DNA of 64,000 bases from Marinifilaceae bacterium (GTDB lineage: Bacteria > Bacteroidota > Bacteroidia > Bacteroidales > Marinifilaceae), in NCBI GenBank assembly GCA_041846495.1, contig JBGZEX010000075.1:1238-65237 (forward strand). Direction: 5' to 3'. Under the pieces are notes generated by a model. It was not told the origin of the DNA, made no database searches, and worked only from the letters and a program-made list of their open reading frames with translations. Of this stretch, positions 1,047 through 37,576 are shown piece after piece. Position 1 is the first letter of the stretch. Every line of letters begins with the position of its first letter. A program made the translations under genes and the position numbers.

Positions 1047-2263
1047 GGATATTATTAATTACTCAGTATTTTTATCCGGAAAATTTTAAGAGCAATGATA
1101 TCGCTTTCGGTTTGGTTGAGCGAGGGTATGAGGTAGATGCCTTGGTAGGAATACCGAATTATCCGGTGGGGAAATATTTTAAAGGATACGGAATATTCAA
1201 AAAGCGTATCCAACGGATAAATGGAGTCAAGGTCTTCCGTTCTTTTCAGTTCCCTCGGGGTAGAGGAAATAAGTTCTTGCTGACGTTGAATTATATAAGC
1301 TATGTGATTTCGGCTTGTTGTCACATCCTTTTGTATTTTGTATGGAGAAAATACGATGCGGTAATTGTGCATGAACCTTCTCCCATATTTCAGGTATATC
1401 CTGCAATGCTTTTGAAGAAATTGAGAAAACTCCCTTTGTATTTGTGGGTGTTGGATATATGGCCGGATGCGATGATGTCCGGAGGAGGAATAAGGAATAG
1501 ATATGTTTTGTCCGTTGTAAATAAAATGGTTATAGGGATTTATAAGCATTGCGATAAAATACTTATAAGCAGCAGGCGATTTACCGAGTCTATTTTGTCG
1601 AAGGGGAATTTTGAGAATAAGATCATTTATTTCCCCAATTGGAGTGAGGATTTGTCGAAGGCGGACTCGACTTATCCTGTTCCCGGATTGCCGGAGGGGT
1701 TCGTAATTATGTTGGCAGGTAATCTGGGACGTTCCCAAAATTTGGATGCTATTATAGAAGCGATTGAGATTTTGCTGGATATAAAAGAATTGAAATGGGT
1801 GTTTGTGGGAGACGGGAGTAAAAAAGAATGGCTGGATGTCTACATAAAGGAGCGTAATTTGACCGACAGAGTTTTTACGTTAGGCCGCTTTCCGCCGGAG
1901 GCCATGCCTGCATTTTTCAGCAAAGCCGATGCCTTGCTGGTAAGTTTGAGAGGCGGATTCCCTCATTTGGGCATGGTTGTTCCCGCTCGTTTGCAAGCTT
2001 ATATGTCGGCAGGACGTCCGGTATTGGCGATGATAGGTGATGGAGGTGCGGATATTATAAGGGAATCGAATTGCGGTTATGCCGTTCCTGCAGGTGATTA
2101 TAAAGCTCTTGCAGATATAATACGGAATAAAGTAATTGCAAATAGAGAGGATTTTGAAAAAATGGGAGAAAACGGGCGTTTGTTTTTTGAAAAAGAATTT
2201 CGAAAAGATATTTGTATTGATAATTTGTGTAAAATACTTAAGAGGGGAATAAAAAATGGTTAG
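1043..2263 (+). CDS. Glycosyltransferase family 4 (WcaI/WbuB-like)
   Basis: 406 aa. N-terminus MRILLITQYFYPENFKSNDI and the C-terminal GT-B region (GRFPPE..VPARLQAYMSAGRPVLA) are typical of WcaI-type GT4 enzymes. Confidence 0.8.
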   Translation: MRILLITQYFYPENFKSNDIAFGLVERGYEVDALVGIPNYPVGKYFKGYGIFKKRIQRINGVKVFRSFQFPRGRGNKFLLTLNYISYVISACCHILLYFVWRKYDAVIVHEPSPIFQVYPAMLLKKLRKLPLYLWVLDIWPDAMMSGGGIRNRYVLSVVNKMVIGIYKHCDKILISSRRFTESILSKGNFENKIIYFPNWSEDLSKADSTYPVPGLPEGFVIMLAGNLGRSQNLDAIIEAIEILLDIKELKWVFVGDGSKKEWLDVYIKERNLTDRVFTLGRFPPEAMPAFFSKADALLVSLRGGFPHLGMVVPARLQAYMSAGRPVLAMIGDGGADIIRESNCGYAVPAGDYKALADIIRNKVIANREDFEKMGENGRLFFEKEFRKDICIDNLCKILKRGIKNG

Positions 2264-2840
2264 AAAATTGAGTTTGACCTATCGATTCCTGCGCTTTATA
2301 GGCTTGAATTATTCTGAGGAAGAATACGGGGATGTGAATATATTGAAAGTTATAGGTAAGTTTTTTGGGAATATATATCATGCTTTGTTGTTAAGTATGA
2401 TGAATTGGGTGATTTTTGAACCCTTTAATCCGAGGATGTTGAGACCCTTTTTATTGAGAAGATTGGGTTGTAAGGTGGGGAAGGGGGTATTTATCGGAGA
2501 TCATGTCATTGTTGATTTAAATCATGCAGATTGTATAATTTTAGAAGATCATGTCCATATTGCCAGTGGAAGTCGGTTATTATGTCATCAGCGAGATTTA
2601 ACAAATTATTGTGTGGGCGACGATTATGCAAAATTAGGTTATAAACTGGGGATGATTTGCATGAAAAGAGGATGCTTGATTGGTATGGAAACGATGATAA
2701 TGCCCGGAGTTACGATAGGAGAAGGTGCTATTGTGGGAGCAGGCTCTTTGGTTACAAAGGATATTCCGGCTTGGACCATTGCTTCGGGGAGGCCTGCTAA
2801 AGTCGTAAAAAATATACCGGTAAGAACGAATGAGGTATGA
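2256..2840 (+). CDS. Hexapeptide-repeat (LbH) acyl/acetyltransferase
   Basis: 194 aa. Left-handed beta-helix repeats (GVFIGDHVIVD, HVHIASGSRLL, GVTIGEGAIVGAGSLV). 8-nt overlap with the upstream gene. Confidence 0.8.
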   Translation: MVRKLSLTYRFLRFIGLNYSEEEYGDVNILKVIGKFFGNIYHALLLSMMNWVIFEPFNPRMLRPFLLRRLGCKVGKGVFIGDHVIVDLNHADCIILEDHVHIASGSRLLCHQRDLTNYCVGDDYAKLGYKLGMICMKRGCLIGMETMIMPGVTIGEGAIVGAGSLVTKDIPAWTIASGRPAKVVKNIPVRTNEV

Positions 2841-3694
2841 ATATTCTTACTTTTGATATTGAAGATTGGTATAATTGCGACTTTATTTCAGGTGAGCTGG
2901 ATTGGGATAAGTACGAGGTGCGTATTTATGAGGGGGTGGAACGTATATTGGAAGAACTCGAACGACGGGAACAAAAAGGGACATTTTTTTGCTTGGGTTG
3001 GATAGCGGAAAAACATCCTGAGGTGATTCGAGCCATATATCGGAACGGACATCATTTGGGATGCCATTCCTATCAGCATGAACTTTCTTCCGGATTTTGT
3101 CGAGAGGAATTCAAAAAAGATACCCTGAAAGCTAAGCATTTGATAGAGGATGTTATCGGGGAGGAAATAAAAGCTTTTCGTGCTCCCGGTTTTTCGATTA
3201 CCCAAAATAATGTATGGGCATTAAGGGCTTTGGTGGAGATGGGATTTGAATATGATTGTTCGATATTCCCTTCTTCGCATGATTACGGAGGTATGATGAG
3301 TTATGGAGCGGGAGTTCCCAAAAGAATAAATGTGGGAGACGGATTGTTTATCAAGGAATTTCCGATAAATATCCGTAAGCTGCTGAATAAAACCGTCGTT
3401 TTTTCCGGGGGAGGATATTTTAGATTGTTTCCCTATAGCTTGATTAAACGTTGGGGAAAGACTTCCGATTATATGATGACTTATTTTCATCCGAGAGATT
3501 TCGATACGGGACAGCCCGTTATGGAAGGTTTACCTTTGATAAGACGTTTTAAGAGTTATGTCGGTATAAAGAAGGCATTTTATAAATTTAAAATGTTTTT
3601 GGATGATTTTGCTTTTTGCAGTGTAGCAGAGGCCGATAAGGAAATAGACTGGGAAAAAGCGGATGTGATTAGTTTATTCGATTTGGAAAAATAG
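2837..3694 (+). CDS. Polysaccharide deacetylase family protein (DUF3473-type)
   Basis: 285 aa. N-terminus MNILTFDIEDWYN and the HSYQH motif are typical of the EPS-locus deacetylase subfamily. 4-nt overlap with the upstream gene. Confidence 0.7.
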   Translation: MNILTFDIEDWYNCDFISGELDWDKYEVRIYEGVERILEELERREQKGTFFCLGWIAEKHPEVIRAIYRNGHHLGCHSYQHELSSGFCREEFKKDTLKAKHLIEDVIGEEIKAFRAPGFSITQNNVWALRALVEMGFEYDCSIFPSSHDYGGMMSYGAGVPKRINVGDGLFIKEFPINIRKLLNKTVVFSGGGYFRLFPYSLIKRWGKTSDYMMTYFHPRDFDTGQPVMEGLPLIRRFKSYVGIKKAFYKFKMFLDDFAFCSVAEADKEIDWEKADVISLFDLEK

Positions 3695-5201: not shown

Positions 5202-5268
5202 TTCGGGAGGTGTGGTTATATTTGACTTTTATAAGTAATGATAGATTGTAAGTTAATATATTGAGGAT

Positions 5269-7644
5269 ATGAAAAAATGGTATTTAGTTCTAATCTTATG
5301 CTGTTTGGGCGGTTCGGTTTTTGCACAAATATCGGATTCGGAGGTAAAAAATATGGTGAAGCAGGCCTATGCCGAAGGAAAATCCAAAGAAGAAATTGCG
5401 GTTATGCTTTTGACAAAAGGCGTAAGTCGGGAAGATGTAGAGCGTTTAAAGGCGGATTATGAAAAAATAGGAAAGGGGAAATCCGCCGAAGATATATCGA
5501 AGAGCAATACCCGGGAACGCCTGAATATGAATTATGCAGGCGTGGAGAAGGATAGTTCCGCAATACGGAACGAAATTTCGGATGTGTTCGGGAGAGCGAT
5601 GTTCAGGAATAATAACCTTACATTCGAACCTCAACTCAATATACCTACTCCGGATAATTACGTGTTGGGGCCGGGGGATGAGATTGTCGTCGATATATGG
5701 GGAAATTCGGAAATGACATTGAGGCAGGTGATATCGCCCGAAGGTACGATTAACGTATCCAATCTCGGTCCTCTTTATTTGAACGGCAAAAATATACGGG
5801 AAGCCGCATTTTATTTGAAGACGATGTTTTCCCGCATATTTTCGGATTTATCGGGACAGAAACCCGGGACGTTTTTAAAGTTGTCGTTGGGACAAATTCG
5901 GAGTATAAGAGTGAATATTGTGGGAGAGGTCGTTATGCCGGGCACTTATACCCTCCCTTCTTTGGCGACTTTATATCACGCTCTGTATGCGGCGGGAGGA
6001 GTAAACGATATGGGAACTTTGCGGAATATATACGTATACCGGAAAGGTGTGCGTATAGCGCGGATAGATGTTTACGATTATATCCTCAATGGGGATAACA
6101 GAGGGGATATCCGTTTGGAAGACGGAGATTTGATAAGCATTGCGACCTATGATAAGCTGGTCGTTCTTAAAGGAGAATTCAAACGTCCGATGACCTATGA
6201 GATGAAAGAAGGAGAAACTCTGAGTGTAGCGTTGAATTATGCCGGAGGATTTTCCGGAGATGCATATAAGTCCTGTGTGACGGTAAGGCGTAAAGGAGAT
6301 AAGGAATTCAAACTGTTTACGGTCGAAAATAAGGATTTCGGAAATTTTGTTCTGTGGAATGGGGATAGTGTGACGGTCAATAGAATATCGGATAGGTACG
6401 AAAATAGGGTGATACTTACCGGAGCCGTGAAACGCCCCGGTGACTATGCTCTCGGAAACAAAATCCGGACTGTAAGGGATTTGATGAAAATGGCTGACGG
6501 ACCGAAAGGGGACGCTTTTCTTACTCGAGCCATACTTTATAGGGAAAAAGAGGATTTGACAAAAGAGGTCATACCTGTGGATATGGAGAAATTGCTTTCC
6601 GGAGAAATTGCAGATGTGGAACTCCGTCCGGAAGATCAACTTTATATTCCTTCGAAAAATGCAATTCGGGAAGGGTATGTAATAAATATTAAAGGAGAAG
6701 TGCGTAATCCCGGAGAATACGATTTTATGGATAATATGACTTTGGAAGATGCGGTAATACGTGCCGGAGGTTTGAACGAATCGGCCTCCGTCGTGCGCGT
6801 GGATGTTGCCAGAAGAATTAAGGATCCCAAAGGGATAAAAGAAATCGATTCGGATGCCGAGTTGTATTCTTTTGCTCTTAAGGATAATTTGGTGGTGGAC
6901 GGCATACGGGGATTCGTATTGGAACCTTTCGACGAAATTTATGTCCGCCGTTCCCCTGTTTACAGGGAACAGCAGAATGTGACGGTGAAGGGAGAGGTGT
7001 TGTATGCGGGAGTTTATGCTAAGGAGACGGTGAATTCCCGGATTTCGGAGTTGGTAAAAAGAGCCGGTGGCGTTACTTCCAAAGCTTATGTAAAAGGTGC
7101 CCGATTGATGAGGAAGATGACTCCGGAACAACGGTTTAAAATGGAAACCGCTTTGAGGTTATCGAAAACTTCCGGAAATGATTCCATCGGAGAGAATGAG
7201 ATAAAGATACCGGATAATTACATCGTCGCAATAGAATTGGAAAAAGCGTTGGCCAATCCCGGTTCGGATGATGATGTGGTGATGGAAGAAGGAGATGAAC
7301 TCATCGTTCCCGCCTATGACGGAACGGTAAGAATAAGCGGGGCGGTAATGCGGCCCAATACCGTTGTCTATAAAAAAGGAATGAAATTTTGTGATTATAT
7401 AGAAAATGCCGGAGGTTTCGGATTTAGGGCTAAAAAACGCAAAGCTTTCGTGATTTATGCGAACGGAAAAGTCGCCGTACGCAAAATAGGGAGAAATCCG
7501 AAAATCGAACCGGGATGCGAAATTATAGTTCCGATGAAAAATAAGGATAGGATGCTGAGCTTCCCGGAAGTATTGAGTATGGGAAGTTCTCTTACTTCCA
7601 TGCTGGGCATGATTACTTATATGATTAATACAACCACAAAGTGA
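5269..7644 (+). CDS. wza: Polysaccharide export outer-membrane protein (Wza-like; Poly_export plus multiple SLBB domains)
   Basis: 791 aa. Signal peptide, Poly_export motif PDNYVLGPGDEIVVDIWG, and repeated SLBB-like segments (GEV..PG.Y). Confidence 0.85.
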   Translation: MKKWYLVLILCCLGGSVFAQISDSEVKNMVKQAYAEGKSKEEIAVMLLTKGVSREDVERLKADYEKIGKGKSAEDISKSNTRERLNMNYAGVEKDSSAIRNEISDVFGRAMFRNNNLTFEPQLNIPTPDNYVLGPGDEIVVDIWGNSEMTLRQVISPEGTINVSNLGPLYLNGKNIREAAFYLKTMFSRIFSDLSGQKPGTFLKLSLGQIRSIRVNIVGEVVMPGTYTLPSLATLYHALYAAGGVNDMGTLRNIYVYRKGVRIARIDVYDYILNGDNRGDIRLEDGDLISIATYDKLVVLKGEFKRPMTYEMKEGETLSVALNYAGGFSGDAYKSCVTVRRKGDKEFKLFTVENKDFGNFVLWNGDSVTVNRISDRYENRVILTGAVKRPGDYALGNKIRTVRDLMKMADGPKGDAFLTRAILYREKEDLTKEVIPVDMEKLLSGEIADVELRPEDQLYIPSKNAIREGYVINIKGEVRNPGEYDFMDNMTLEDAVIRAGGLNESASVVRVDVARRIKDPKGIKEIDSDAELYSFALKDNLVVDGIRGFVLEPFDEIYVRRSPVYREQQNVTVKGEVLYAGVYAKETVNSRISELVKRAGGVTSKAYVKGARLMRKMTPEQRFKMETALRLSKTSGNDSIGENEIKIPDNYIVAIELEKALANPGSDDDVVMEEGDELIVPAYDGTVRISGAVMRPNTVVYKKGMKFCDYIENAGGFGFRAKKRKAFVIYANGKVAVRKIGRNPKIEPGCEIIVPMKNKDRMLSFPEVLSMGSSLTSMLGMITYMINTTTK

Positions 7645-8771
7645 TGGAGAAGGATATGGGAAAAATCCGGGAAAATCCGGGAGAAATCGAAATGGCGGAT
7701 ATTGTGCGCAAACTCTATCGCAACCGTCGTTTTATATTCAGAGTCTCGGGAATATTTTTAGTATTGGGTATATTGCATGCATTTACTTCCGCCAGTGTTT
7801 ATACGGCTCAATGTACGGTAGTTCCTCAAATAACCAAGGATGCCTCTATGGGAGGACTGAGCGGCCTGGCTGCCATGGCCGGCATTAATCTCGGTTCGGT
7901 GAATATGGCTAAGGAACTTTCGCCTTTGGTGTATCCCAAGATTATGAAAAATGTAGAATTTCGTAAAGAGTTGATGATGACTCCGTTGAAATTCAAGAAG
8001 TTCGAATATCCCGTTTCGGTTTACGACTATTGTACCGACCCGAAATACCGTTCTTTTAATCTGAAGGCTTTTGTTTGGAAATATACCGTAGGATTGCCCG
8101 GATTGATATTGAAAACCCTCTCGAAAGAAGATACGCTCCGGAAGTCTTCCGGGCCGGAAGTCGGTATATTGTATGTTTCGAAAAAGGAAATGCAGGTAGC
8201 CGATTTTTTGGAGAAGGTGCTGACTTTGAATGTAGACAGGAAGGAAGGTATCGTAACGCTCTCGGCAACTCTCCCCGATCCTCTGGCGGCAGCTGAATTG
8301 ACGGATAAAACCCTGAAGCTTTTGCAAAAATATATAACGGAGTTTAAAATTCAGAAAGTTGCTTCTAATCTTCAGTTTGTGGAAGAACGCTATCATGAAG
8401 TGAAGAAAAATTTCGAGGATAAGCAGGAAGAGTTGGCCCGGTTTAAAGATGCCAACCTGAGTTTTTCCTCTGCGACGGCTCAAATTCGGGAAGAAAAACT
8501 CCGTTCGGAATATACCCTTATCTACAGTGTATATACGGAATTGGCCAAACAATTGGAACAGTCCCGCATAGCCGTAAAAGAGACTACGCCCATATTGGGT
8601 GTGGTGGAACCGGTAGTCGTTCCCGTGAGACCTTCTGCTCCCCGTCGCATGTTTATTTTGGTCGTTTCCGTATTCCTCGGTTTTGTACTTGCCGTAGGTT
8701 ATTTGTTTACGGCTCCTTTTATTGCGGGGATAACCGGAAATAAAAGACTTCTCAAATGGTATAAAGATTAG
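7644..8771 (+). CDS. wzz: Chain-length determinant protein (Wzz family, no kinase domain)
   Basis: N- and C-terminal TM helices flank a coiled-coil periplasmic region. The ATG at 7644 overlaps the wza stop (TGATG). The ORF track begins at GTG 7641. Confidence 0.75.
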   Translation: MEKDMGKIRENPGEIEMADIVRKLYRNRRFIFRVSGIFLVLGILHAFTSASVYTAQCTVVPQITKDASMGGLSGLAAMAGINLGSVNMAKELSPLVYPKIMKNVEFRKELMMTPLKFKKFEYPVSVYDYCTDPKYRSFNLKAFVWKYTVGLPGLILKTLSKEDTLRKSSGPEVGILYVSKKEMQVADFLEKVLTLNVDRKEGIVTLSATLPDPLAAAELTDKTLKLLQKYITEFKIQKVASNLQFVEERYHEVKKNFEDKQEELARFKDANLSFSSATAQIREEKLRSEYTLIYSVYTELAKQLEQSRIAVKETTPILGVVEPVVVPVRPSAPRRMFILVVSVFLGFVLAVGYLFTAPFIAGITGNKRLLKWYKD

Positions 8772-8775
8772 ATTT

Positions 8776-9012
8776 ATGGATAATTTAAGCAGGTACCGGG
8801 AAATATTCTCCGGAAGTTTTAAAATACCGGTCGAGCGTTTACCGGGTTTGAAGTATCAGGAAATTCCTTTATGGGATTCCATAGGGCACATGGCCCTGGT
8901 TTCTGCAATCGAAGATGCTTTTGATGTGATGTTGGAAACGGATGATATTATCGATTTTTCGTCTTACGAAAAAGGGATTGAAATTTTGAAAAAATATGGA
9001 GTCGAATTCTGA
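8776..9012 (+). CDS. Acyl carrier protein (stand-alone, phosphopantetheine-binding)
   Basis: 78 aa. Carrier-protein size and the LWDSIGHMALV motif, with the Ser in a DS context. Confidence 0.75.
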   Translation: MDNLSRYREIFSGSFKIPVERLPGLKYQEIPLWDSIGHMALVSAIEDAFDVMLETDDIIDFSSYEKGIEILKKYGVEF

Positions 9013-9736
9013 ATTGTTAAAAGGGAAGGTAGCTCTTATAACGGGTTGCAACAGAGGAATAGGTAAAGCCGTTTCGGATGTATTCGTCGAGAACGGAGCT
9101 TTCGTGTATGCCGTGGCCCGCAAACCGGATTCGTTGAAATTTTACGAATCGCATCCGAATGTACATCCGGTTTATTTGGATATAACCGACAGACCTGCGG
9201 TAAGAGAACTTTTCCTTTTGATAAAAAAACAATCCGGACGTCTCGATATCCTCGTCAATAATGCCGGTGTCATGAGAGATGCCGTTTTGGGGATGATTAC
9301 CGATGACGATATGGAATATAGTTTCAGAACGAATGTATTTGCAGGTATATTGATGATGCAGTATGCGGCAAAGTCGATGCTCCGACAGAAGAGCGGTTCG
9401 ATTATCAACCTCGCTTCTATTATGGGGCGATGCGGAAATGCCGGTCAAATCGTTTATTCTGCAAGCAAAGGAGCTGTGATTGCAATGACGAAATCTGCAG
9501 CCAAAGAGCTGGCTCCGAGTTGTATAAGGGTGAACGCCATCGCTCCCGGCATTATCGAAACGGATATGTTTATGGGAGTTCCCGAAGAAAAACGGGAAGC
9601 CTTGAGAAAACGGGTAGGGATGGGACATATGGGTTCTCCTGAAGATGTGGCGAATGCGGCCCTCTTCCTTGCTTCCGATTTGTCGCTTTATGTTTCGGGA
9701 CAGATATTGGGTGTGGACGGTATGATGTCGTATTAA
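8996..9736 (+). CDS. SDR oxidoreductase, 3-oxoacyl-ACP reductase (FabG)-like
   Basis: 246 aa. TGCNRGIGKA (TGxxxGIG), NNAG, YSASKGAV (YxxxK). 17-nt overlap with the ACP gene. Confidence 0.85.
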   Translation: MESNSELLKGKVALITGCNRGIGKAVSDVFVENGAFVYAVARKPDSLKFYESHPNVHPVYLDITDRPAVRELFLLIKKQSGRLDILVNNAGVMRDAVLGMITDDDMEYSFRTNVFAGILMMQYAAKSMLRQKSGSIINLASIMGRCGNAGQIVYSASKGAVIAMTKSAAKELAPSCIRVNAIAPGIIETDMFMGVPEEKREALRKRVGMGHMGSPEDVANAALFLASDLSLYVSGQILGVDGMMSY

Positions 9737-9750
9737 AATTATTATATATT

Positions 9751-11187
9751 TTGATTTTTGAAAAACTTCCATATGACGCCTCTCGGCCGATTGCTATCGA
9801 TGATAAGGGCGATAAATTGACGACCGCCTCTTTGCAGGAGGTGACTGCCTCTTTGGAATCGATTGTCGGAGGGAATAAAGCCGTCGTTTTTTGTCTGGCA
9901 GAAAATTCCGTGGATTTTTTGGCCGGATATATCGCTTTTATGCGTTTGGGTATAGTGCCGGTTATGCTCGATTTATATAAACGGCATAGAATGCTGGATG
10001 CGTTGATGGAATGCTATCGGCCGGCTTATATATGGTTGCCGGCATCTTATGCGCCGGTTACGGGAGAGGGAGAATGTATATTTTCTTTTTTGTCTTACCG
10101 GCTTTATGCAATGCCCGGCTCTCATGTCCTGCAAAATGCGGATATTGCCGGAAATTTAGCTTTGTTGTTGACAACTTCGGGGAGTACGGGAAGCCCGAAA
10201 TTAGTACGCTTGAGTTATGAGAATGTATTGGCCAATGCCGAATCCATAGCCGAATATTTGAATATAAATGCGGAAGAACGTCCGGTGACTTCTTTGCCGA
10301 TGTTTTATTCCTACGGGCTTTCGGTCGTTCACAGTCATTTGTTGAGAGGGGCCACCCTTCTTTTGACCGATGAGCCGGTAGTTCAACGGAAGTTTTGGAA
10401 TTTCGTAAAAGAAATGCGGGCTACTTCCATGGCTGGAGTACCTTATACTTATGAAATATTGAAACGCCTGCGTATTTTTGATATGGATTTGCCGGATCTT
10501 AAAGTGTTTACTCAAGCCGGAGGAAAATTGAATGCGGAAGTGGTGAGGGAGTATATCGATTATGCGGAGCGGAACGGGAAGCGTTTTATCGTTATGTACG
10601 GACAAACGGAAGCTACTGCCCGTATGAGTTATTTGCCTTTCGAAAGGGCTGCGGAAAAATACCGGAGTATCGGTCACCCTATTCCGGGAGGACGTTTCCG
10701 GCTTGTGGATGAGGAAGGTAGGAATATAGAGGGAAGCGGAATCGATGGGGAATTGGTATACGAGGGTCCCAATGTTTCATTGGGATATGCCGAAACTCCG
10801 GAGGATTTGTCTAAAGGAGACGAAAATAACGGAGTGCTGTATACCGGAGATATTGCCCGGAGAGACGATGAGGGGTTCTATTATATAACGGGACGTAAGA
10901 AACGTTTTGTTAAAATTTTCGGAAACAGAGTGAATTTGGATGCTGTGGAACAAATGGTGAAAGAAATTACGCTTTCTACGGCTTGTATAGGAGTCGATGA
11001 TAAAATTACCGTATTTATTACCGATGCTGATAAAAGACAAGAGGTGGCGGATATGTTGAGGGAACGTACCGGTTGGCAGCATGTATTCGATGTCCTCGTC
11101 ATTGAAGAAATTCCCAAGAATACTTCCGGTAAAATACAATATACGGCACTTTACGATTGTTCGAAAGGAAATGACGGAAATGGATGA
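9751..11187 (+). CDS. AMP-dependent (ANL) acyl ligase / adenylating enzyme
   Basis: 478 aa. TTG start. Core motifs LLLTTSGSTGSPK, YGQTEA, YTGDIARRDDEGFYYITGRKK, PKNTSGKIQY. Confidence 0.85.
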   Translation: MIFEKLPYDASRPIAIDDKGDKLTTASLQEVTASLESIVGGNKAVVFCLAENSVDFLAGYIAFMRLGIVPVMLDLYKRHRMLDALMECYRPAYIWLPASYAPVTGEGECIFSFLSYRLYAMPGSHVLQNADIAGNLALLLTTSGSTGSPKLVRLSYENVLANAESIAEYLNINAEERPVTSLPMFYSYGLSVVHSHLLRGATLLLTDEPVVQRKFWNFVKEMRATSMAGVPYTYEILKRLRIFDMDLPDLKVFTQAGGKLNAEVVREYIDYAERNGKRFIVMYGQTEATARMSYLPFERAAEKYRSIGHPIPGGRFRLVDEEGRNIEGSGIDGELVYEGPNVSLGYAETPEDLSKGDENNGVLYTGDIARRDDEGFYYITGRKKRFVKIFGNRVNLDAVEQMVKEITLSTACIGVDDKITVFITDADKRQEVADMLRERTGWQHVFDVLVIEEIPKNTSGKIQYTALYDCSKGNDGNG

Positions 11188-12262
11188 CATATTCGGAATA
11201 CCGCCTTACGGATGGGGGAAGGAGGTAAAACGCCGCTTTTTCAATCGGCGTCTCAGATCGCTGACTGCCCGTCATTATGAGAACTGCGAGGCTTATAAGA
11301 GGATATTGGATGCTTTCGGATTCGATGTAAACGGGAATTACGAATATGAAGATATACCTTTTCTACCGGTACGTTTGTTTAAAGAATACGAACTGAGGAG
11401 TGTGGATAAAGGAGATGTGGTGAAGGCTCTTACTTCCTCGGGGACTTCCGGACAAAAAGTTTCCCGGATTTTTTTGGATAGGACGACTTCCATGGCGGAG
11501 ACGAAAGCACTTTCGCGTATACTGACTTCTTTTATAGGAAAGATGCGATTGCCCATGCTTGTTATAGATTCCGATACGGTGCTCGGAAACAGGAATATAC
11601 ATTCCGCCCGGGCTGCGGGAATATTGGGATTTTCAATATTTGCTTCCGATAAACTTTTCGCATTGGATGAGAATATGCAGCTTAAAACGAATGAAGTGAG
11701 AAGTTTTTTGGAAAAACATAAGGGAGAGCGTATTTTGATTTTCGGTTTTACCTTTATGATATGGCAGTATTTCCATCAGAAAATTTTGCAAATGGATTAT
11801 AAACCGGATTTATCCGGAGCTGTTTTGATTCATGGCGGAGGTTGGAAAAAACTTGAAGCGGAGTCCGTATCTTCGGACGATTTTAAAAAGGCTCTTAACA
11901 ATGCTTGCGGAGTAGAGACTTCTTGCATACACGATTACTACGGAATGGCGGAACAGGCGGGAGCTATTTGTATGGAATGCGAATACGGTTATTTGCACAC
12001 CTCGGTTTTCTCGGATATTATCGTACGTCGTTCCGACGATTTTACTCCGGCAACCTGTGGAGAGCCGGGAATTATAGAAACGGTGTCCCTCCTGCCGGAA
12101 AGTTATCCCGGACATGTATTGTTGACCGAGGATACGGGATATATTGCCGGAGAAGACGATTGCCCCTGCGGTAGATTGGGAAAATATTTTAAGATACGGG
12201 GACGATTGAGAAATGCCGAATTAAGAGGATGTAGCGATACTTATGCAGCAGGAATTCGATAA
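11171..12262 (+). CDS. LuxE-like acyl-protein synthetase
   Basis: IPFLPVRLFKEYEL and TSSGTSGQKVSRIF motifs. The start is placed at ATG 11171 (MTEMDD), overlapping the ligase stop by 17 nt. The ORF track begins at 11081. Confidence 0.7.
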   Translation: MTEMDDIFGIPPYGWGKEVKRRFFNRRLRSLTARHYENCEAYKRILDAFGFDVNGNYEYEDIPFLPVRLFKEYELRSVDKGDVVKALTSSGTSGQKVSRIFLDRTTSMAETKALSRILTSFIGKMRLPMLVIDSDTVLGNRNIHSARAAGILGFSIFASDKLFALDENMQLKTNEVRSFLEKHKGERILIFGFTFMIWQYFHQKILQMDYKPDLSGAVLIHGGGWKKLEAESVSSDDFKKALNNACGVETSCIHDYYGMAEQAGAICMECEYGYLHTSVFSDIIVRRSDDFTPATCGEPGIIETVSLLPESYPGHVLLTEDTGYIAGEDDCPCGRLGKYFKIRGRLRNAELRGCSDTYAAGIR

Positions 12263-13448
12263 TATGGAGTATGTATTTCCTTCTTCCGTCGACTGGGAGG
12301 AATGGAAAGAATGCAGAGCTTTTATGCCTTTTGAAGAGGAGGTTGTCGATTTTTTGAATGCCCTTTCCGTTTCCTTATTCAAGGATCCGGAAATAAGGCG
12401 TTATAGGGATGTTGTCGCTTTTGCATTTTTTTGCAGAAGGGCGAATATACTTTCTTATAAGCAGGAAAACGGAGATTCCGGGATACGTCTGGGGCGGGGT
12501 CTGGTTTTCCATGTTGCGGCATCCAATGTTCCGATGAATTTTGCCTATTCCCTGACAGCCGGATTATTGGGTGGAAATTACAATATCGTACGTCTGCCTT
12601 CCCGCCGTTTCGAACAGGCGGATATGCTTGTTCGTCACATTCGCCGGTTGTCGGGGAATGCCCCGTATAAGGATGTAGCAAAGCGTATAGCCCTTGTGAG
12701 ATATGATAAGGCGGATGCCGCAACGGCTTTTTTTTCTTCTTTTTGCGATGTGCGGATTGTATGGGGTGGAGACGAAACCGTACGTAGAATACGTGAACTG
12801 CCCATTCCGCCGCGGTCTTTCGATTTGAGTTTTGCCGATCGTTATTCTCTTGCAATTTTCCGTATCGTATCCTTGCCCGATGAAAAGGAGATAAGGCGTA
12901 TAGCGTCCGGTTTTTATAACGACACCTATGTTTTCGATCAGAATGCCTGTTCTTCCCCTCATCTCGTGATATGGACGGGAGATAAAGGGAATGTGGAGAA
13001 AATGAGGTATTTGTTTTGGAAAGCTTTATATGAGGAGGTCGAAAATAAATATGAGTTCCATCCGATCCTGGCGATAGATAAATTGACGGCTTTATGCCGG
13101 CAAGCGATAGAAATGCCTGTTCGAAAAACGGGTGAGTACGGAAATAAATTAGTAAGGGTGGAACTTGAAAGATTGAAGGAGGATGTCGATAGGTTTCGTT
13201 CGGCCGGCGGATATTTTTCGGAATATTATGCCGGAACGCCGGACGAAATTGTTCCGATGGTCAAGCGCTCCTATCAAACTTTGGTTTATTATGGATTCGA
13301 ATCCGAGGAATTGGCCGATTTCATAAAGAAAAATCGATTGCCGGGAATAGATCGCATCGTTCCGGTAGGGACGGCTTCCGATTTCCGATTTATATGGGAT
13401 GGGTACGATTTGCCGGCTTTATTGTCTCGAATATGCGATTTGAGATAA
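12243..13448 (+). CDS. LuxC-like acyl-CoA/acyl-protein reductase
   Basis: 401 aa. HVAASNVPMNFAYSL and FDQNACSSPHLVIW (putative catalytic Cys). An alternative ATG at 12264 lies 1 nt after the LuxE-like stop. Confidence 0.7.
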   Translation: MQQEFDNMEYVFPSSVDWEEWKECRAFMPFEEEVVDFLNALSVSLFKDPEIRRYRDVVAFAFFCRRANILSYKQENGDSGIRLGRGLVFHVAASNVPMNFAYSLTAGLLGGNYNIVRLPSRRFEQADMLVRHIRRLSGNAPYKDVAKRIALVRYDKADAATAFFSSFCDVRIVWGGDETVRRIRELPIPPRSFDLSFADRYSLAIFRIVSLPDEKEIRRIASGFYNDTYVFDQNACSSPHLVIWTGDKGNVEKMRYLFWKALYEEVENKYEFHPILAIDKLTALCRQAIEMPVRKTGEYGNKLVRVELERLKEDVDRFRSAGGYFSEYYAGTPDEIVPMVKRSYQTLVYYGFESEELADFIKKNRLPGIDRIVPVGTASDFRFIWDGYDLPALLSRICDLR

Positions 13449-13467
13449 GTTATTGTAAGAAGAGGTT

Positions 13468-14565
13468 ATGTTCAAACATATATTTACTTTTATAAAAGCC
13501 GTAGCCGTATTGGTTCATATACTGATTGGCCTGTGTTTTATCGTTTCGGCTTATAGTTATGTTTTTGATCCGAGATTATGTTGGGGACTGCCTTCCTCGG
13601 GACTTTTGTTTCCGGTCTTTCTTTTATTGGAGATTTGTTTTTTTATATTTTGGTTGGTCGTAAAAAAAAGGAATATGTGGATTTCCGTCGTTGCCGTTTT
13701 GCTTTGTTACGGACCTGTCCGTACTTTTTTCCCGCTTCATTTATGGGGAGATAAGACACCCCTCGGAGCCATAAAAATTTTATCCTACAATGTTATGGGA
13801 TGCGGAGCCGGTATCAGAGATACGACGGAATACAAAAATCCGGTGCTTAAATATATTATTGAAAGCGGAGCGGATATCGTTTGTATGCAGGAGTTCCATT
13901 TTTGGGGAGGAAGTAAACGTTTGAGTTTTTCGGAAGCCGATACGATTTTAAAAAAGAAATATCCCTATGCTTCGATTACGGATATAAAGGGAGGGAATAC
14001 CTTGGCATGTTATTCGAAATTCCCTATTTTAGAAACATTCCCTATAAAAATGTATACTAAAATGCAAAATGGGGCGGTAGGATACCGTATAGCTTGTGAA
14101 AAAGAGATTATCGTGATAAACAATCATTTGGAATCGAATCGGATTACTTATGCCGATAAGGTCGTTTATACGGAAGTTTTGCATGGCGTTGCGGATAGGG
14201 ATAAGGTTAAAGAAGTGGTGAAACGTTTGGGTATTAAGGTGAGCGAGGCTTCGAAGATACGGGCGGAACAGGCTGATAGTATAGCTGAAATCATAAGCGG
14301 GTTGGAAGGAGAGCGAATAATCGTATGCGGGGATTTTAACGATATTTCCCTGTCGTATTCTTATCGTAAAATAAGAGGTAAATTTCGAGATGCTTTTGTC
14401 GATACGGGTTTGGGATGTGGAATTTCGTTCAATCGGGATTATTTTTGGGTAAAAATTGACCATATTCTTTATGGGAATGGATTTAAAGCGTATAATTGCA
14501 ATGTCGATAAAAAAATCGATTTTTCGGATCATTACCCCATTTATTCGTCGTTTGTCCTGTTATGA
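13468..14565 (+). CDS. Membrane-anchored endonuclease/exonuclease/phosphatase (EEP) family protein
   Basis: 365 aa. About 90 aa of N-terminal TM helices, then an EEP-like domain (ILSYNV.., CMQE, C-terminal SDHYPI). Confidence 0.7.
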   Translation: MFKHIFTFIKAVAVLVHILIGLCFIVSAYSYVFDPRLCWGLPSSGLLFPVFLLLEICFFIFWLVVKKRNMWISVVAVLLCYGPVRTFFPLHLWGDKTPLGAIKILSYNVMGCGAGIRDTTEYKNPVLKYIIESGADIVCMQEFHFWGGSKRLSFSEADTILKKKYPYASITDIKGGNTLACYSKFPILETFPIKMYTKMQNGAVGYRIACEKEIIVINNHLESNRITYADKVVYTEVLHGVADRDKVKEVVKRLGIKVSEASKIRAEQADSIAEIISGLEGERIIVCGDFNDISLSYSYRKIRGKFRDAFVDTGLGCGISFNRDYFWVKIDHILYGNGFKAYNCNVDKKIDFSDHYPIYSSFVLL

Positions 14566-14723
14566 GGAGGCGAAATTATATGCGGTTATGAGAAAACTCG
14601 GTTTTTTTTCGCATGATGGCATATTTATTGTTAATTAAAAGCGTATGTATGCTAAATTTAATTATTTATTTTATGATATTGAAAAAATAGTAAAGATTCT
14701 TCTTTAAATTAGATAATTAAAAT

Positions 14724-14731
14724 TATCTTTG
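14724..14731 (+). promoter_or_regulatory. Bacteroidota -7 promoter element (TAnnTTTG)
   Basis: tatctttg, 76 nt upstream of the OmpA-family ATG. Confidence 0.5.
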
Positions 14732-14806
14732 TACAAATTGCTGTCATTAGCCGTCAGGTGTAGGCATGAAATTTGGAGAGATTATTGTTAAATTAAAAAG
14801 AAAGTT

Positions 14807-15934: not shown

Positions 15935-15954
15935 TTAATGAATATGAATTTTAT

Positions 15955-36898: not shown

Positions 36899-37576
36899 AT
36901 GCTTAGGGCAATGCGGTTGTATATAGGAGGTAAGGGAATTCCGGCTTATAGTACTCTGAAGACTTATGTTTATGAGGATGAGTATAGGAATGCGCTGCTT
37001 TATCCCCATACGGGATTGAGGCATTTGGGATGGTTGGTGATGGTGCGTTCCGTATTTACGGATTTTTTCGGCTGGTCCAAGGATGATTATCGGATTTTAA
37101 AGACCGAAGCCGGCAAACCTTTTTGCGATCGAAAGGAGGGGTGGGCATTTTCCGTTTCTCACTCCGGAGATTATGTGATTGCGGTTTTTTCGGATCGAGG
37201 CGATGTGGGGGCGGATATCGAGAAACACAGAGGGGTGAGGATGCCTGTCGCTCGGCGTTATTTCTCTTCCCACGAATTGGAAATTATAAAAAACGGCGGA
37301 GAGGATGCGGAGAAATATTTTTACGATTTTTGGACAATTCGGGAGGCTTATGTAAAATATAGGGGAGGGCGTTTGGGAGAAATGATGAGGCGTTTTTACG
37401 CGGATAAGCAAGGGGTTGCCTACCGTATCCTAACCTATGAAGGAGAAAGTGAAAGTCTTTCCGTCCTCCCCTTGTATCCGGATGGGAATTTCATCGGTTC
37501 GCTTTATTCCGGATTTGTCGTATGTGCAGGCTTGCAAAAGATTGTCGAGGAGGATTTCGTTTGGGATTTCGTATAA
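36899..37576 (+). CDS. 4'-phosphopantetheinyl transferase, Sfp type
   Basis: Motifs GKPF, FSVSHSGDYV, GADIE, FWTIREAYVK. The start is uncertain (ATG 36899 or 36911). Confidence 0.75.
   Translation: MLRAMRLYIGGKGIPAYSTLKTYVYEDEYRNALLYPHTGLRHLGWLVMVRSVFTDFFGWSKDDYRILKTEAGKPFCDRKEGWAFSVSHSGDYVIAVFSDRGDVGADIEKHRGVRMPVARRYFSSHELEIIKNGGEDAEKYFYDFWTIREAYVKYRGGRLGEMMRRFYADKQGVAYRILTYEGESESLSVLPLYPDGNFIGSLYSGFVVCAGLQKIVEEDFVWDFV

What the first reader, a model, noticed from the sequence alone, without database searches (positions are those of the whole stretch)
8776..13448. Carrier-protein module (ACP, FabG-like SDR, ANL ligase, LuxE-like, LuxC-like) attached to the 3' end of a capsule export operon
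Five same-strand genes overlap or abut one another and follow directly behind wza-wzz. They are a 78-aa ACP (Ser in LWDSIGH), an SDR (TGCNRGIG, YSASK), an adenylating ligase (TSGSTGSPK, GKIQY), a LuxE-like acyl-protein synthetase (IPFLPVRLFK, SSGTSGQ) and a LuxC-like reductase (FDQNACSSP, candidate catalytic Cys). By established knowledge, LuxC/LuxE form the fatty-acid reductase that makes aldehyde for bioluminescence. From memory, an ACP + ligase + LuxC/E-like set (rfbK-O) was proposed to build the tetronate N-acyl group on perosamine in the V. cholerae O1 antigen. Two features are unusual. The module has two separate carboxylate-activating enzymes, the ANL ligase and LuxE. It also contains no transferase or aminotransferase. 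My inference is that it makes a non-standard (hydroxy)acyl or aldehyde-derived substituent that decorates a capsule sugar, possibly transferred by the hexapeptide acyltransferase at 2256-2840. The chemistry and acceptor cannot be read from the sequence.
Basis: partly seen in the sequence, partly recalled or inferred. Interest (0 to 1): 0.72.

Follow-up and report, generated by a model that had tools for sequence, protein, structure and literature searches.

The report
Mobile acyl-tailoring cassette beside capsule export genes
Five overlapping genes behind the capsule export genes are a real, widely shared but biochemically untested cassette (carrier protein, reductase, two acid-activating enzymes, aldehyde-forming reductase) that most likely builds a small hydroxy-acyl decoration for surface sugars, as the cholera O1 antigen genes are thought to do.

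Summary
Window 8776-13448 encodes ACP, a FabG-like SDR, an ANL ligase, a LuxE-like enzyme and a LuxC-like enzyme. All five are co-directional, overlapping or near-abutting, and start 4 nt after wzz. Catalytic residues are present and invariant across about 70-85 homologues.

This is not a one-off. The ligase-LuxE-LuxC triad plus ACP recurs in species-representative genomes of at least seven phyla (497 confirmed hits). It nearly always lies in glycan loci, next to amino-sugar aminotransferases and N-acyltransferases. The same five genes in the same order are already described, as "fatty-acid genes", in Aeromonas flagellin glycosylation islands. V. cholerae O1 wbeK-N is the only homologue set tied to a chemical product.

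The two activating enzymes are a conserved design, and ligase-LuxE and LuxE-LuxC-ligase fusions exist. Best model (inferred): LuxE/LuxC reduce one carboxyl of a small dicarboxylic acid, the SDR makes the alcohol, and the ligase loads the other carboxyl on the ACP.

The proposed hexapeptide acyltransferase link is not supported. In this lineage the cassette belongs to the conserved wza-wzz backbone, is shared by three capsule types and is under purifying selection. Acceptor and transferase are unknown. New member of a known, uncharacterised kind; moderate interest.

The parts
8776..9012 (+). Dedicated 78-aa acyl carrier protein with a WDSxGH motif; Ser35 is the predicted phosphopantetheine attachment site.
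   Evidence: Marginal Pfam PP-binding hit at the correct position. A profile of 22 homologues hits ACPs in the PDB. W33, D34, S35 and H38 are invariant in 68/68 homologues. Homologues are 53-67% identical across phyla.
8996..9736 (+). Classical SDR, FabG-like and NADPH-type (TGxxRGIG; catalytic YxxxK at 154-158). It is proposed to reduce the aldehyde or oxo group of the intermediate.
   Evidence: adh_short 2e-53. The best NCBIfam match is 3-oxoacyl-ACP reductase at 218 bits, below the equivalog cutoff of 297. Orthologues at 51-59% identity occur in the 13 loci that have the ACP, this SDR type, ligase, LuxE and LuxC (two also carry transketolase genes).
9751..11187 (+). ANL-superfamily adenylating ligase. 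It is proposed to load the finished acid onto the ACP.
   Evidence: AMP-binding 4e-43. The A3 motif TSGSTGSPK and the A10 Lys461 (84/84) are conserved. The nearest solved relatives are ACP- or carrier-loading ligases and small-dicarboxylate ligases (VinN/CmiS6-type, MatB, DltA, oxalate-CoA ligase). The ACP gene lies directly upstream of the ligase in 27 loci, against 1 locus where it is upstream of LuxE.
11180..12262 (+). LuxE-like acyl-protein synthetase. It adenylates a carboxylate and carries it as a thioester on a C-terminal Cys (Cys351 in the 360-aa numbering).
   Evidence: PF04443 2.5e-57. It aligns full length with P. phosphoreum LuxE, 7XC6_E, E=1.3e-16. In that alignment RGCSDTY pairs with the C-terminal KGCSLSM of LuxE, which from my memory of the Lux literature is the acylation site. 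The Cys is invariant in 77/77 homologues.
12243..13448 (+). LuxC-like acyl-thioester reductase with an ALDH fold and catalytic Cys236. It forms an aldehyde.
   Evidence: PF05893 2.7e-28. FDQNACSSP aligns with YDQQACFST of LuxC 7XC6_A. Cys236 is invariant in 83/83 homologues. The AlphaFold model has pLDDT 86.5, and its best PDB fold match is LuxC 7XC6_A, E=8e-15, TM 0.69.
5269..8771 (+). wza (5269-7644) and wzz (7641-8771). These export and chain-length genes form one conserved block with the cassette in this lineage.
   Evidence: Pfam Poly_export/SLBB and Wzz/GNVR. The block is conserved and contiguous with the cassette in strains with three different upstream regions.
5202..5268 (.). Intergenic region between the phosphoglycosyl transferase and wza. 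It is the left boundary of the conserved block and the right end of the swappable serotype region.
   Evidence: Homology to sister strains with other capsule types starts at window 5203-5213.
2256..3694 (+). WcaF/Maa-like hexapeptide acyltransferase (2256-2840) overlapping an XrtA-type polysaccharide deacetylase (2837-3694). I considered this pair as transferase and acceptor-preparing enzymes. They are probably not dedicated to the cassette.
   Evidence: Pfam and NCBIfam. The same block, with 86% and 70% identical proteins, occurs in Bacteroides loci without the cassette. The deacetylase family does occur next to the cassette in 2 other loci and in P. distasonis.
36899..37576 (+). Sfp-type 4'-phosphopantetheinyl transferase, a candidate activator of the ACP. 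It lies 23 kb away and no linkage is shown.
   Evidence: Pfam ACPS 6e-13 plus AASDHPPT_N.

Best explanation
Window 8776-13448 is one copy of a widespread, horizontally mobile glycan-tailoring cassette. Its core is ACP + ANL ligase + LuxE-like + LuxC-like. This copy is the minimal form, with one FabG-like SDR.

Proposed mechanism:
1. LuxE adenylates one carboxyl group of a small dicarboxylic acid (L-malate is the precedent) and holds it as a thioester on its C-terminal Cys.
2. LuxC takes the acyl group onto Cys236 and reduces it with NAD(P)H to the semialdehyde.
3. The SDR reduces the aldehyde to an alcohol.
4. The ANL ligase adenylates the remaining carboxyl and loads the omega-hydroxy or dihydroxy acid onto Ser35 of the dedicated ACP.
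5. An acyltransferase encoded elsewhere moves the acyl group onto an amino group (or hydroxyl) of a surface-glycan sugar.

Whether reduction happens before or after loading on the ACP is open.

Shown here:
- Gene identities and catalytic residues.
- Operon-like packing behind wza-wzz.
- Conservation of the cassette, and its glycan or amino-sugar neighbourhood in other genomes.
- Purifying selection.

Inferred:
- The dicarboxylate substrate.
- The order of steps.
- The role of the SDR.
- The final transfer.

In this lineage the cassette is part of the conserved export backbone and is shared by at least three capsule types. Its product is therefore probably used irrespective of the repeat unit. 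The acceptor and the transferase are not identified.

Conserved unit:
- In 82 non-redundant loci from Bacteroidota, Spirochaetota, Bacillota, Melainabacteria, Planctomycetota, Saccharibacteria and Proteobacteria, the counts are ligase 80, LuxC 77, LuxE 73 and ACP 66.
- LuxE is directly followed by LuxC in 70 loci, and the ligase by LuxE in 54.

Physical coupling of the two activators:
- Natural fusions exist: ligase-LuxE (5 representatives), LuxE-LuxC (several), LuxE-LuxC-ligase (1279 aa), and Fe-ADH-LuxE, which links aldehyde formation to alcohol formation.

Glycan N-acylation context:
- A WecE/DegT aminotransferase is present in 32 loci, an acyltransferase family in 41, and one or the other in 52 of 82 loci, many of which are truncated.
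- P. distasonis has PGT, PglD-like AT..., ACP, MBL, ligase, LuxE, LuxC, DegT and a PglF-like dehydratase.
- L110 has FdtA, DegT, Wzx, GNAT, SDR, ACP, ligase, TE-LuxE and LuxC.
- A Rhizobium plasmid has an AT that PGAP names as LpxA-type (acyl-ACP-dependent) directly upstream of the ACP.
- Dickeya has vioA, maa, acpP, fabG..., fadD, luxE and luxC.

Chemical precedent:
- V. cholerae O1 wbeK-N (ACP, ligase, Fe-ADH, LuxC/LuxE fusion) are the genes assigned to the 2,4-dihydroxybutanoyl (tetronate) N-acyl group of perosamine. RfbL is said to load 2,4-dihydroxybutanoate on RfbK.
- A. piscicola AH-3 is described as carrying the same five genes in the same order. Its flagellin glycan has a 376.14-Da pseudaminic acid derivative and an unexplained 102-Da moiety.
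- Both masses fit a C4H6O3 acyl residue: 316.13 - 42.01 + 102.03 = 376.15. This arithmetic is my own inference.

Accessory enzymes in larger variants use aldehyde or oxo electrophiles or small hydroxy acids: split transketolase, NeuB-like aldolase, ALS-like carboligase, and an LDH/MDH-like gene directly after LuxC in 12 loci.

Functional in this lineage:
- dN/dS is 0.04-0.16 for all five genes against strains of three capsule types.
Against: - No enzyme of this cassette has been assayed, here or in the papers I found. The V. cholerae pathway itself is a sequence-based proposal from 1995.
- I could not retrieve V. cholerae or Aeromonas sequences. Orthology to those systems rests on annotations and gene order in papers.
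- Type II thioesterases lie between the ligase and LuxE in 8-9 loci, and one TE-LuxE fusion exists. This mimics the LuxD-LuxE-LuxC flow and favours a route in which the ACP-bound acid is released and the same carboxyl is reduced.
- The SDR is most similar to 3-oxoacyl-ACP reductases, so it may reduce a 3-oxo group on the ACP rather than a free aldehyde.
- No acyltransferase can be tied to the cassette in the window lineage. The nearest one is shared with cassette-free Bacteroides loci.
- Ligase similarity to long-chain fatty-acid ligases and Aas is as strong as its similarity to dicarboxylate ligases.
Confidence: 0.5

Rival explanations
1. Same-carboxyl route with an aldehyde end product. The ligase loads a small oxo acid on the ACP and the FabG-like SDR reduces it there. 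The acid is then released, by a thioesterase where one is present, re-activated by LuxE and reduced by LuxC. The resulting hydroxy-aldehyde is the building block. It could serve as an electrophile for transketolase, NeuB or ALS in larger variants, or be joined to an amino sugar by imine formation and reduction.
For: - A type II TE sits between the ligase and LuxE in 8-9 loci. A glyoxalase-II-like MBL sits before the ligase in 7.
- A TE-LuxE fusion exists, which copies the LuxD-LuxE-LuxC logic.
- The SDR's best match is 3-oxoacyl-ACP reductase.
- The accessory C-C bond-forming enzymes need an aldehyde.
Against: - The minimal cassette in the window has no thioesterase.
- Loading on an ACP only to hydrolyse and re-adenylate costs two ATP for one ketoreduction.
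- The strong co-occurrence with N-acyltransferases, including PglD-like and PGAP-named LpxA-type enzymes, argues that the product is an acyl thioester rather than an aldehyde.
- The V. cholerae product keeps its carboxyl as an amide.
Confidence: 0.2
2. Fatty-acid reductase for a lipid. As in bioluminescent bacteria, LuxE/LuxC reduce a long-chain fatty acid to a fatty aldehyde, and the SDR then makes the alcohol. The ligase and ACP act as an acyl-ACP synthetase. The product would be a lipid anchor or 'liposugar' for the capsule.
For: - Homology to the LuxC-LuxE fatty acid reductase.
- Ligase hits to long-chain fatty-acid-CoA ligase and to the Aas acyl-ACP synthetase domain.
- The authors of the Aeromonas and Enterobacteriaceae papers suggested a lipid component.
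- Its position in the serotype-independent export block would suit a common anchor.
Against: - The scores are far below the bioluminescence equivalog cutoffs: LuxE 71 bits against 550, LuxC 36 against 750.
- The neighbours across 80 loci are amino-sugar enzymes and enzymes of small hydrophilic acids (transketolase, NeuB, LDH/MDH), not lipid enzymes.
- The one homologous system with a known product makes a C4 dihydroxy acid.
- The unexplained masses in Aeromonas are 60 and 102 Da, not fatty-acyl sized.
Confidence: 0.1
3. The cassette is merely adjacent to the capsule genes in this lineage. It serves another acceptor, such as LPS, a glycoprotein or another polysaccharide encoded elsewhere, or it is used by only some capsule types.
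For: - It lies outside the swappable serotype region and is retained with three different regions.
- No dedicated transferase lies in the visible locus.
- In Paludibacteraceae the cassette sits next to ribosomal-protein genes rather than in a capsule operon.
Against: - There is a 4-nt gap after wzz and no terminator before 16589.
- Elsewhere the cassette is nearly always inside glycan loci.
- Capsule types B and C carry a DegT aminotransferase and a phosphoglycosyl transferase right next to wza, so they make a potential amino-sugar acceptor.
Confidence: 0.15
4. One reading: the hexapeptide acyltransferase at 2256-2840 transfers the cassette's acyl group to a capsule sugar. A refinement is that this follows de-N-acetylation by the overlapping deacetylase at 2837-3694, in LpxC/LpxD style.
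For: - The AT and deacetylase genes overlap by 4 nt.
- XrtA-type deacetylases lie beside the cassette in L019, L040 and P. distasonis. PIG-L-type deacetylases do so in 3 loci.
- A 33%-identical hexapeptide protein directly follows LuxC in Paludibacteraceae.
Against: - An 86%-identical AT and a 70%-identical deacetylase occur in the same block in Bacteroides capsule loci with no cassette within 10 kb.
- Sister strains of types B and C keep an intact, selected cassette without this block.
- The AT is WcaF/Maa-like, a family of acetyl-CoA O-acetyltransferases.
Confidence: 0.1

Closest known systems
Vibrio cholerae O1 tetronate genes wbeK-O / rfbK-O (VC0248-VC0252)
   Same: - ACP, ANL ligase (471 aa), an alcohol-forming dehydrogenase and LuxC + LuxE domains, all in a polysaccharide locus.
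- They are assigned to the N-acyl group (2,4-dihydroxybutanoyl) of a 4-amino-4,6-dideoxyhexose.
- Two carboxylate activators are present there too.
   Different: - LuxC and LuxE are one 825-aa protein there and two proteins here.
- The dehydrogenase is an iron ADH there and an SDR here.
- I recall an acyltransferase (rfbO) adjoining the V. cholerae genes (my memory, not checked here); none adjoins the cassette in the window.
- The context there is an ABC-transporter O-antigen of perosamine; here it is a Wzx/Wzy-type capsule.
- Sequence orthology could not be tested.
ACP-FabG-ligase-LuxE-LuxC set of Aeromonas group II polar flagellin glycosylation islands, and the Acp/FabG/CaiC/LuxE/LuxC sets of Enterobacterales islands (Dickeya, Pectobacterium, Kosakonia)
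   Same: - The five annotated functions are the same, and in Aeromonas the order is the same.
- Enterobacterial LuxE proteins are about 56% identical to the window's (L075 and L082).
- The biochemistry is uncharacterised in both.
   Different: - Those islands glycosylate flagellin and sit among pse or vioA genes. This copy sits behind capsule export genes.
- The enterobacterial form carries an extra split transketolase and a second SDR.
LuxCDE fatty acid reductase of luminous bacteria (PDB 7XC6)
   Same: LuxE fold and C-terminal acyl-Cys. LuxC ALDH fold and catalytic Cys. Adjacent, overlapping genes.
   Different: - About 17% identity for LuxC. The scores are far below the equivalog cutoffs.
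- LuxC is 76 residues shorter.
- No luxA, luxB or luxD is present.
- There is an extra ANL ligase and a dedicated ACP.
- The context is glycan synthesis.
Pseudomonas syringae viosamine 3-hydroxybutyryl module (KAS III + ACP + reductase + VioB acyltransferase); named from my own knowledge
   Same: A dedicated ACP-bound short hydroxyacyl group is made beside an amino-sugar aminotransferase and a NeuD/VioB-type N-acyltransferase. The same sub-module (FabH, second ACP, SDR, NeuD-AT) lies next to the cassette in several loci.
   Different: It builds the acyl chain by Claisen condensation. It has no ligase, no LuxE and no LuxC.
XrtA/PEP-CTERM exopolysaccharide-associated acyl-CoA ligase (TIGR03098) and deacetylase (TIGR03006)
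   Same: The best NCBIfam hits are these two families: the ligase at 1.4e-48 and the upstream deacetylase at 5e-70.
   Different: Both score below the family cutoffs (166 against 592; 236 against 276). No exosortase or PEP-CTERM genes were seen.

Membership tests
Pfam LuxE (PF04443) acyl-protein synthetase family | Profile match above the gathering score over the full length | tested here: met
   195 bits against a cutoff of 24.9, covering residues 33-387 of the 393-aa ORF.
Pfam LuxE (PF04443) acyl-protein synthetase family | Adenylation P-loop and a C-terminal Cys that carries the acyl group | tested here: met
   SSGTSGQ is present and RGCSDTY aligns with the C-terminal KGCSLSM of 7XC6_E. That this Cys is the acylation site is from my memory of the Lux literature. 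The Cys is invariant in 77/77 homologues.
Bioluminescence LuxE (NCBIfam NF052244 equivalog) | Score above the equivalog cutoff | tested here: not met
   71 bits against a cutoff of 550.
Pfam LuxC (PF05893) acyl-CoA / acyl-protein reductase family | Profile match above the gathering score, ALDH fold and catalytic Cys | tested here: met
   99 bits against a cutoff of 21, although only residues 56-275 are matched. Cys236 aligns with the LuxC Cys and is invariant in 83/83 homologues. The best PDB fold match of the model is 7XC6_A.
Bioluminescence LuxC (NCBIfam NF052251 equivalog) | Score above the equivalog cutoff | tested here: not met
   36 bits against a cutoff of 750.
lux operon (luxCDABE) | Luciferase luxA/luxB and acyltransferase luxD adjacent | tested here: not met
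   The neighbours are wza, wzz, ACP, SDR, ligase, an EEP-family protein and an OmpA-like protein. I ran no dedicated luciferase search of the whole window.
ANL superfamily (AMP-binding, PF00501) | Profile match, A3 motif and A10 lysine | tested here: met
   148 bits against a cutoff of 29.9. TSGSTGSPK is present and Lys461 is invariant in 84/84 homologues.
Acyl carrier protein (PP-binding, PF00550) | Profile match above the gathering score | tested here: not met
   17.9 bits against a cutoff of 20.8.
Acyl carrier protein (PP-binding, PF00550) | About 80 aa, a conserved Ser at the start of helix 2, and similarity to solved ACPs | tested here: met
   Ser35 is invariant in 68/68 homologues. With the family profile, 32 of 34 PDB hits are acyl or D-alanyl carrier proteins; the best E-value is 1.5e-4. 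Phosphopantetheinylation itself is not testable here.
FabG 3-oxoacyl-ACP reductase (TIGR01830 and related equivalogs) | Score above the equivalog cutoff | tested here: not met
   218 bits against cutoffs of 297-332. It is a classical SDR with the YxxxK and TGxxRGIG motifs.
V. cholerae O1 tetronate module (wbeK-O) | ACP + ANL ligase + LuxC/LuxE reductase together in a polysaccharide locus | tested here: met
   for the window. for V. cholerae, from the literature.
V. cholerae O1 tetronate module (wbeK-O) | Iron-containing alcohol dehydrogenase (wbeM) and a fused LuxC-LuxE (wbeN) | tested here: not met
   The window has an SDR and separate LuxE and LuxC genes. Fe-ADH-LuxE and LuxE-LuxC fusions exist in other members of the family.
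V. cholerae O1 tetronate module (wbeK-O) | Adjacent acyltransferase (wbeO) and perosamine pathway genes | tested here: not met
   None lies in 8776-16573. No DegT-family gene was found in the window by tblastn with the family representative. That wbeO is an acyltransferase adjacent to wbeN is from my memory, not checked here.
V. cholerae O1 tetronate module (wbeK-O) | Sequence orthology of each protein; 2,4-dihydroxybutanoyl product | not testable with these tools
   V. cholerae sequences could not be fetched, and product chemistry needs experiments.
Flagellin-glycosylation-island ACP/FabG/ligase/LuxE/LuxC cassette (Aeromonas group II, Enterobacterales) | The same five gene functions, contiguous | tested here: met
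   Gene order in the window against the published order orf1 ACP, orf2 reductase, orf3 AMP-synthetase, luxE, luxC. Kosakonia and Symbiopectobacterium loci were retrieved as relatives.
Flagellin-glycosylation-island ACP/FabG/ligase/LuxE/LuxC cassette (Aeromonas group II, Enterobacterales) | Location among flagellin, pse or vioA genes | tested here: not met
   The window copy follows wza-wzz of a capsule locus.

The most novel reading that the evidence does not exclude
The ligase-LuxE-LuxC-ACP unit is a universal platform for making aldehyde-derived, sugar-like acyl building blocks, and it moves horizontally between phyla. It would turn central-metabolism acids into reactive semialdehydes. Plug-in enzymes (SDR, transketolase, NeuB-type aldolase, ALS-type carboligase, LDH/MDH) would then diversify these into a large, unexplored family of glycan N-acyl groups.

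In this lineage the unit is hard-wired to the capsule export genes rather than to a serotype region. It would therefore add a capsule-type-independent modification, for example on the initiating amino sugar or at a terminus. The transferase would be of an unrecognised kind, possibly one of the adenylating enzymes itself forming the amide.
Probability: 0.2. Interest if true: 0.75.

Novelty: new member of a known kind. Interest (0 to 1): 0.45.

Why it matters
Unusual N-acyl groups on surface sugars shape serotype, phage receptors and immune recognition. The V. cholerae tetronate group is part of the protective O1 antigen. Its pathway has remained a sequence-based proposal since 1995.

This work shows that the same enzyme logic is common. 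It gave 497 confirmed hits in species-representative genomes. It is present in prevalent gut species such as Parabacteroides distasonis, in Lachnospiraceae and Treponema, and in plant and fish pathogens. It is under selection and is still annotated as "bioluminescence" or "fatty-acid" genes.

A single in vitro reconstitution would re-annotate thousands of genes. It could also explain unexplained masses in flagellin glycans, such as the 102-Da moiety of Aeromonas.

Tried and rejected
- I looked for the window's own contig upstream. The first ORF (30-1046) is not on record. The GT1 and ACP proteins were on record and gave sister contigs.
- I tried to name the organism through exact-sequence cluster look-ups of nine and then five proteins. 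No member carries a name except the hexapeptide AT cluster, which is Bacteroides. Taxonomy stays "probably Bacteroidales", unverified.
- I tried to reach Aeromonas and V. cholerae sequences through a second homologue search seeded with Kosakonia LuxE. It returned only Enterobacterales and unnamed proteins.
- An E. coli complete-genome search with the Kosakonia cassette DNA gave no match.
- Literature searches for PF04443, PF05893 and LuxE-like found nothing relevant. I found no biochemical study of the cassette.
- My crude ORF picker dropped the window's SDR and LuxE, because of a longer antisense ORF and an overlap. I corrected this with tblastn.
- The EEP-family gene at 13468-14565 is rejected as part of the cassette. 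It has no homologue in any of the 85 related loci.
- The LpxC/LpxD-style swap by the deacetylase and HexAT is rejected as the main model.
- The poly-A tract near 13662 is invariant among strains, so it does not explain the different EEP gene calls.

Full report
**1. Observation**

The five genes are real and tightly packed on the + strand.
- ACP 8776-9012.
- SDR 8996-9736, with a 17-nt overlap.
- ANL ligase 9751-11187, with a TTG start. The 478-aa length matches public gene calls.
- LuxE-like 11180-12262.
- LuxC-like 12243-13448, with a 20-nt overlap.

wzz ends 4 nt before the ACP gene.

Pfam places the SDR, ligase, LuxE and LuxC proteins well above the gathering scores. The ACP scores just below the gathering score. 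It is nevertheless supported by a family profile that hits almost only carrier proteins in the PDB and by an invariant WDSxGH serine.

That test is passed.

**2. Are the enzymes competent?**

- The LuxE-like protein aligns end to end with P. phosphoreum LuxE of the solved LuxC-LuxE complex (7XC6_E, E=1.3e-16). It keeps a C-terminal cysteine at the aligned position, which I recall to be the acylation site.
- The LuxC-like protein keeps the catalytic cysteine.
- Its AlphaFold model (pLDDT 86.5) finds LuxC 7XC6_A as the best fold match in the PDB, ahead of hundreds of aldehyde dehydrogenases.
- Both cysteines, the ligase A10 lysine and the ACP serine are invariant in 68-84 homologues.
- Both Lux-like proteins score far below NCBI's bioluminescence equivalog cutoffs. 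They are family members, not luminescence orthologues.

**3. The cassette is widespread and mobile**

- The best 80 are 54-63% identical to the window protein. They come from Bacteroidota, Spirochaetota, many Bacillota, Melainabacteria, Planctomycetota, Saccharibacteria and Proteobacteria.
- Among 1.84 billion 50%-identity cluster representatives, 422 match at E<=1e-30.
- In 82 non-redundant loci the counts are ligase 80, LuxC 77, LuxE 73, ACP 66 and an SDR 59. LuxE directly precedes LuxC in 70 loci, and the ligase directly precedes LuxE in 54.
- Two carboxylate activators are therefore the conserved design, not an oddity.
- Nature has also fused them: ligase-LuxE, LuxE-LuxC, LuxE-LuxC-ligase, Fe-ADH-LuxE and TE-LuxE proteins exist.

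**4. Forms of the cassette**

- **Minimal form.** The window's SDR has 51-59% identical orthologues in 13 loci that carry the ACP, this SDR type, ligase, LuxE and LuxC. Examples are Bacteroides faecichinchillae, B. cutis, two flavobacteria and several Clostridia.
- **Transketolase form.** About 40 loci add a split transketolase. This is the form published for Dickeya zeae flagellar clusters.
- **Third form.** It adds FabZ, an ALS-like ThDP enzyme, a NeuB-like aldolase and an MBL hydrolase, often with an LDH/MDH-like gene directly after LuxC. Parabacteroides distasonis carries this form on thousands of contigs.

**5. Context elsewhere**

The commonest neighbours are as follows.
- WecE/DegT sugar aminotransferases, in 32 loci.
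- NeuD/PglD-type, GNAT or other acyltransferases, in 41 loci.
- PglC-like phosphoglycosyl transferases.
- RmlA, RmlB and FdtA.
- ArnC-like Und-P glycosyltransferases with split EamA flippase genes.

Three loci are especially telling.
- In P. distasonis the cassette is embedded between a PglD-like N-acyltransferase and a PglE/PglF-like aminotransferase and dehydratase.
- In L110 it follows FdtA, DegT, Wzx and a GNAT.
- On a Rhizobium plasmid, an acyltransferase that PGAP names as LpxA-type (acyl-ACP-dependent) directly precedes the ACP.

This pattern is what one expects if the cassette supplies an acyl thioester for N-acylation of an amino sugar.

**6. What is already known**

- The same five functions in the same order are described in Aeromonas group II polar flagellin glycosylation islands. 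Acp/FabG/CaiC/LuxE/LuxC sets are described in Enterobacteriaceae islands. In both cases they are read as fatty-acid synthesis genes that might add a lipid.
- I found no biochemical study.
- The only homologous system linked to a structure is V. cholerae O1. [quoted passage not shown] RfbL is described as loading 2,4-dihydroxybutanoate onto RfbK.
- A. piscicola AH-3 carries the cassette. Its flagellin glycan contains a 376.14-Da pseudaminic acid derivative and an unexplained terminal 102-Da moiety.
- Both numbers fit a C4H6O3 residue. Dihydroxybutanoyl is 102.03 Da, and di-N-acetyl Pse at 316.13, minus acetyl at 42.01, plus 102.03, gives 376.15. This is my arithmetic, not the authors' claim. 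A tetrose residue has the same mass.

**7. Mechanism proposed**

The steps are as follows.
1. LuxE and LuxC reduce one carboxyl of a small dicarboxylic acid to the semialdehyde.
2. The SDR plays the role of the V. cholerae iron ADH and makes the alcohol.
3. The ligase loads the other carboxyl on the ACP.
4. An acyltransferase delivers the hydroxyacyl group to a sugar amine.

This model gives each of the five genes one job. It explains the two activators and their fusions. It also explains the Fe-ADH-LuxE fusion and the MDH-like neighbour. Finally, it explains why the add-on enzymes of the larger forms are all enzymes that attack aldehyde or oxo electrophiles.

The model remains an inference. 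The main rival is a same-carboxyl route (load, tailor, release, reduce) ending in an aldehyde. That rival is suggested by thioesterases between the ligase and LuxE and by a TE-LuxE fusion. The minimal form in the window has no thioesterase.

**8. The window's own lineage**

Exact-protein look-ups recovered sister contigs.
- The stretch wza, wzz, ACP, SDR, ligase, LuxE, LuxC, EEP, OmpA-like and a 191-aa ORF is conserved.
- The region upstream of wza comes in at least three types.
  - Type A, as in the window: FnlABC-like genes, GT1, HexAT, deacetylase, epimerase and a 182-aa PGT.
  - Type B: two GT2 genes, a pyruvyl transferase, an FrhB-like gene, a 202-aa PGT and DegT.
  - Type C: Acyl_transf_3, a dehydratase, UGDH, a GT2, a 202-aa PGT and DegT.
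- Homology starts at window 5203-5213, in the PGT-wza spacer.
- All five cassette genes are intact in all three types, with dN/dS of 0.04-0.16.

The cassette is therefore part of the export backbone, not of a serotype cassette.

The hexapeptide acyltransferase at 2256-2840 is 86% identical to a Bacteroides cellulosilyticus protein. That protein sits in the same GT1-HexAT-deacetylase-epimerase block in loci with no cassette within 10 kb. It is very unlikely to be the dedicated transferase.

Acceptor and transferase in this lineage remain unknown. Types B and C at least encode an amino sugar next to wza.

**9. Verdict**

The locus is a new member, in a capsule-backbone setting, of a known but uncharacterised kind of glycan acyl-tailoring cassette. 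Interest is moderate. The individual locus is ordinary for its class. The class itself is large, mis-annotated and experimentally open.

Noticed in passing
window 5202-5268 (with L090, L098, L100, L102): The capsule locus of this lineage has a swappable serotype region. Its right-hand recombination boundary falls in the 67-nt spacer between the phosphoglycosyl transferase and wza. At least three region types share the same downstream backbone.
   Followed up: yes
L106 7363-10047 (Parabacteroides distasonis-type contig): In one contig the LuxE gene is split by an IS element (DDE_Tnp_1 transposase). Sister contigs have it intact. This is a natural knockout that could be compared phenotypically.
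   Followed up: no
P0461, P0462, P0487, P0550, P0567, P0471, P0523, P0304 (representative proteins): Natural domain fusions exist: ligase-LuxE, LuxE-LuxC-ligase (1279 aa), Fe-ADH-LuxE and thioesterase-LuxE. They may guide reconstitution and show that the three core enzymes work as a unit.
   Followed up: partly
literature, PMC7874193 (A. piscicola AH-3): The unexplained 102-Da terminal moiety and the 376.14-Da pseudaminic acid derivative both fit a C4H6O3 (dihydroxybutanoyl/tetronate-type) residue. This strain carries the same cassette.
   Followed up: partly
L111 10019-11272 and L112 12352-13596 (Rhizobium and Ponticoccus plasmids): RefSeq attaches the GO term 'bioluminescence' to the LuxC-like genes of these non-luminous bacteria. 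It names the Rhizobium LuxE-like gene 'long-chain fatty acid--CoA ligase'. These look like propagated mis-annotations.
   Followed up: no
window 36899-37576 (+): A Sfp-type 4'-phosphopantetheinyl transferase (ACPS + AASDHPPT_N) lies 23 kb from the cassette. It is a plausible activator of the dedicated ACP.
   Followed up: partly
window 50456-55089: A second glycan-related cluster: a YfhO-like large membrane protein (842 aa, - strand) next to a GT2 (53093-54118) and a GT1 (54007-55089).
   Followed up: no
window 13468-14565 (+): A membrane-anchored endonuclease/exonuclease/phosphatase-family protein (public calls add DUF8431) follows luxC by 20 nt. It is conserved in the lineage but absent from all 85 related cassette loci. 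Its 5' end and the luxC spacer differ between strains (365-aa against 296-aa gene calls).
   Followed up: partly
L086 5506-8910 (upstream of the window start in a sister contig): Three genes resembling the FnlA/FnlB/FnlC pathway for UDP-L-FucNAc precede the window's first ORF, so capsule type A probably contains L-FucNAc. A Wzx flippase and a GFO/IDH/MocA oxidoreductase lie further upstream.
   Followed up: no
L001-L003 5815-13911 (Paludibacteraceae): Here the cassette (with transketolase, a hexapeptide protein and a 367-aa unknown) lies right after the rpoA-rplQ ribosomal gene cluster, not in a recognisable capsule operon.
   Followed up: no
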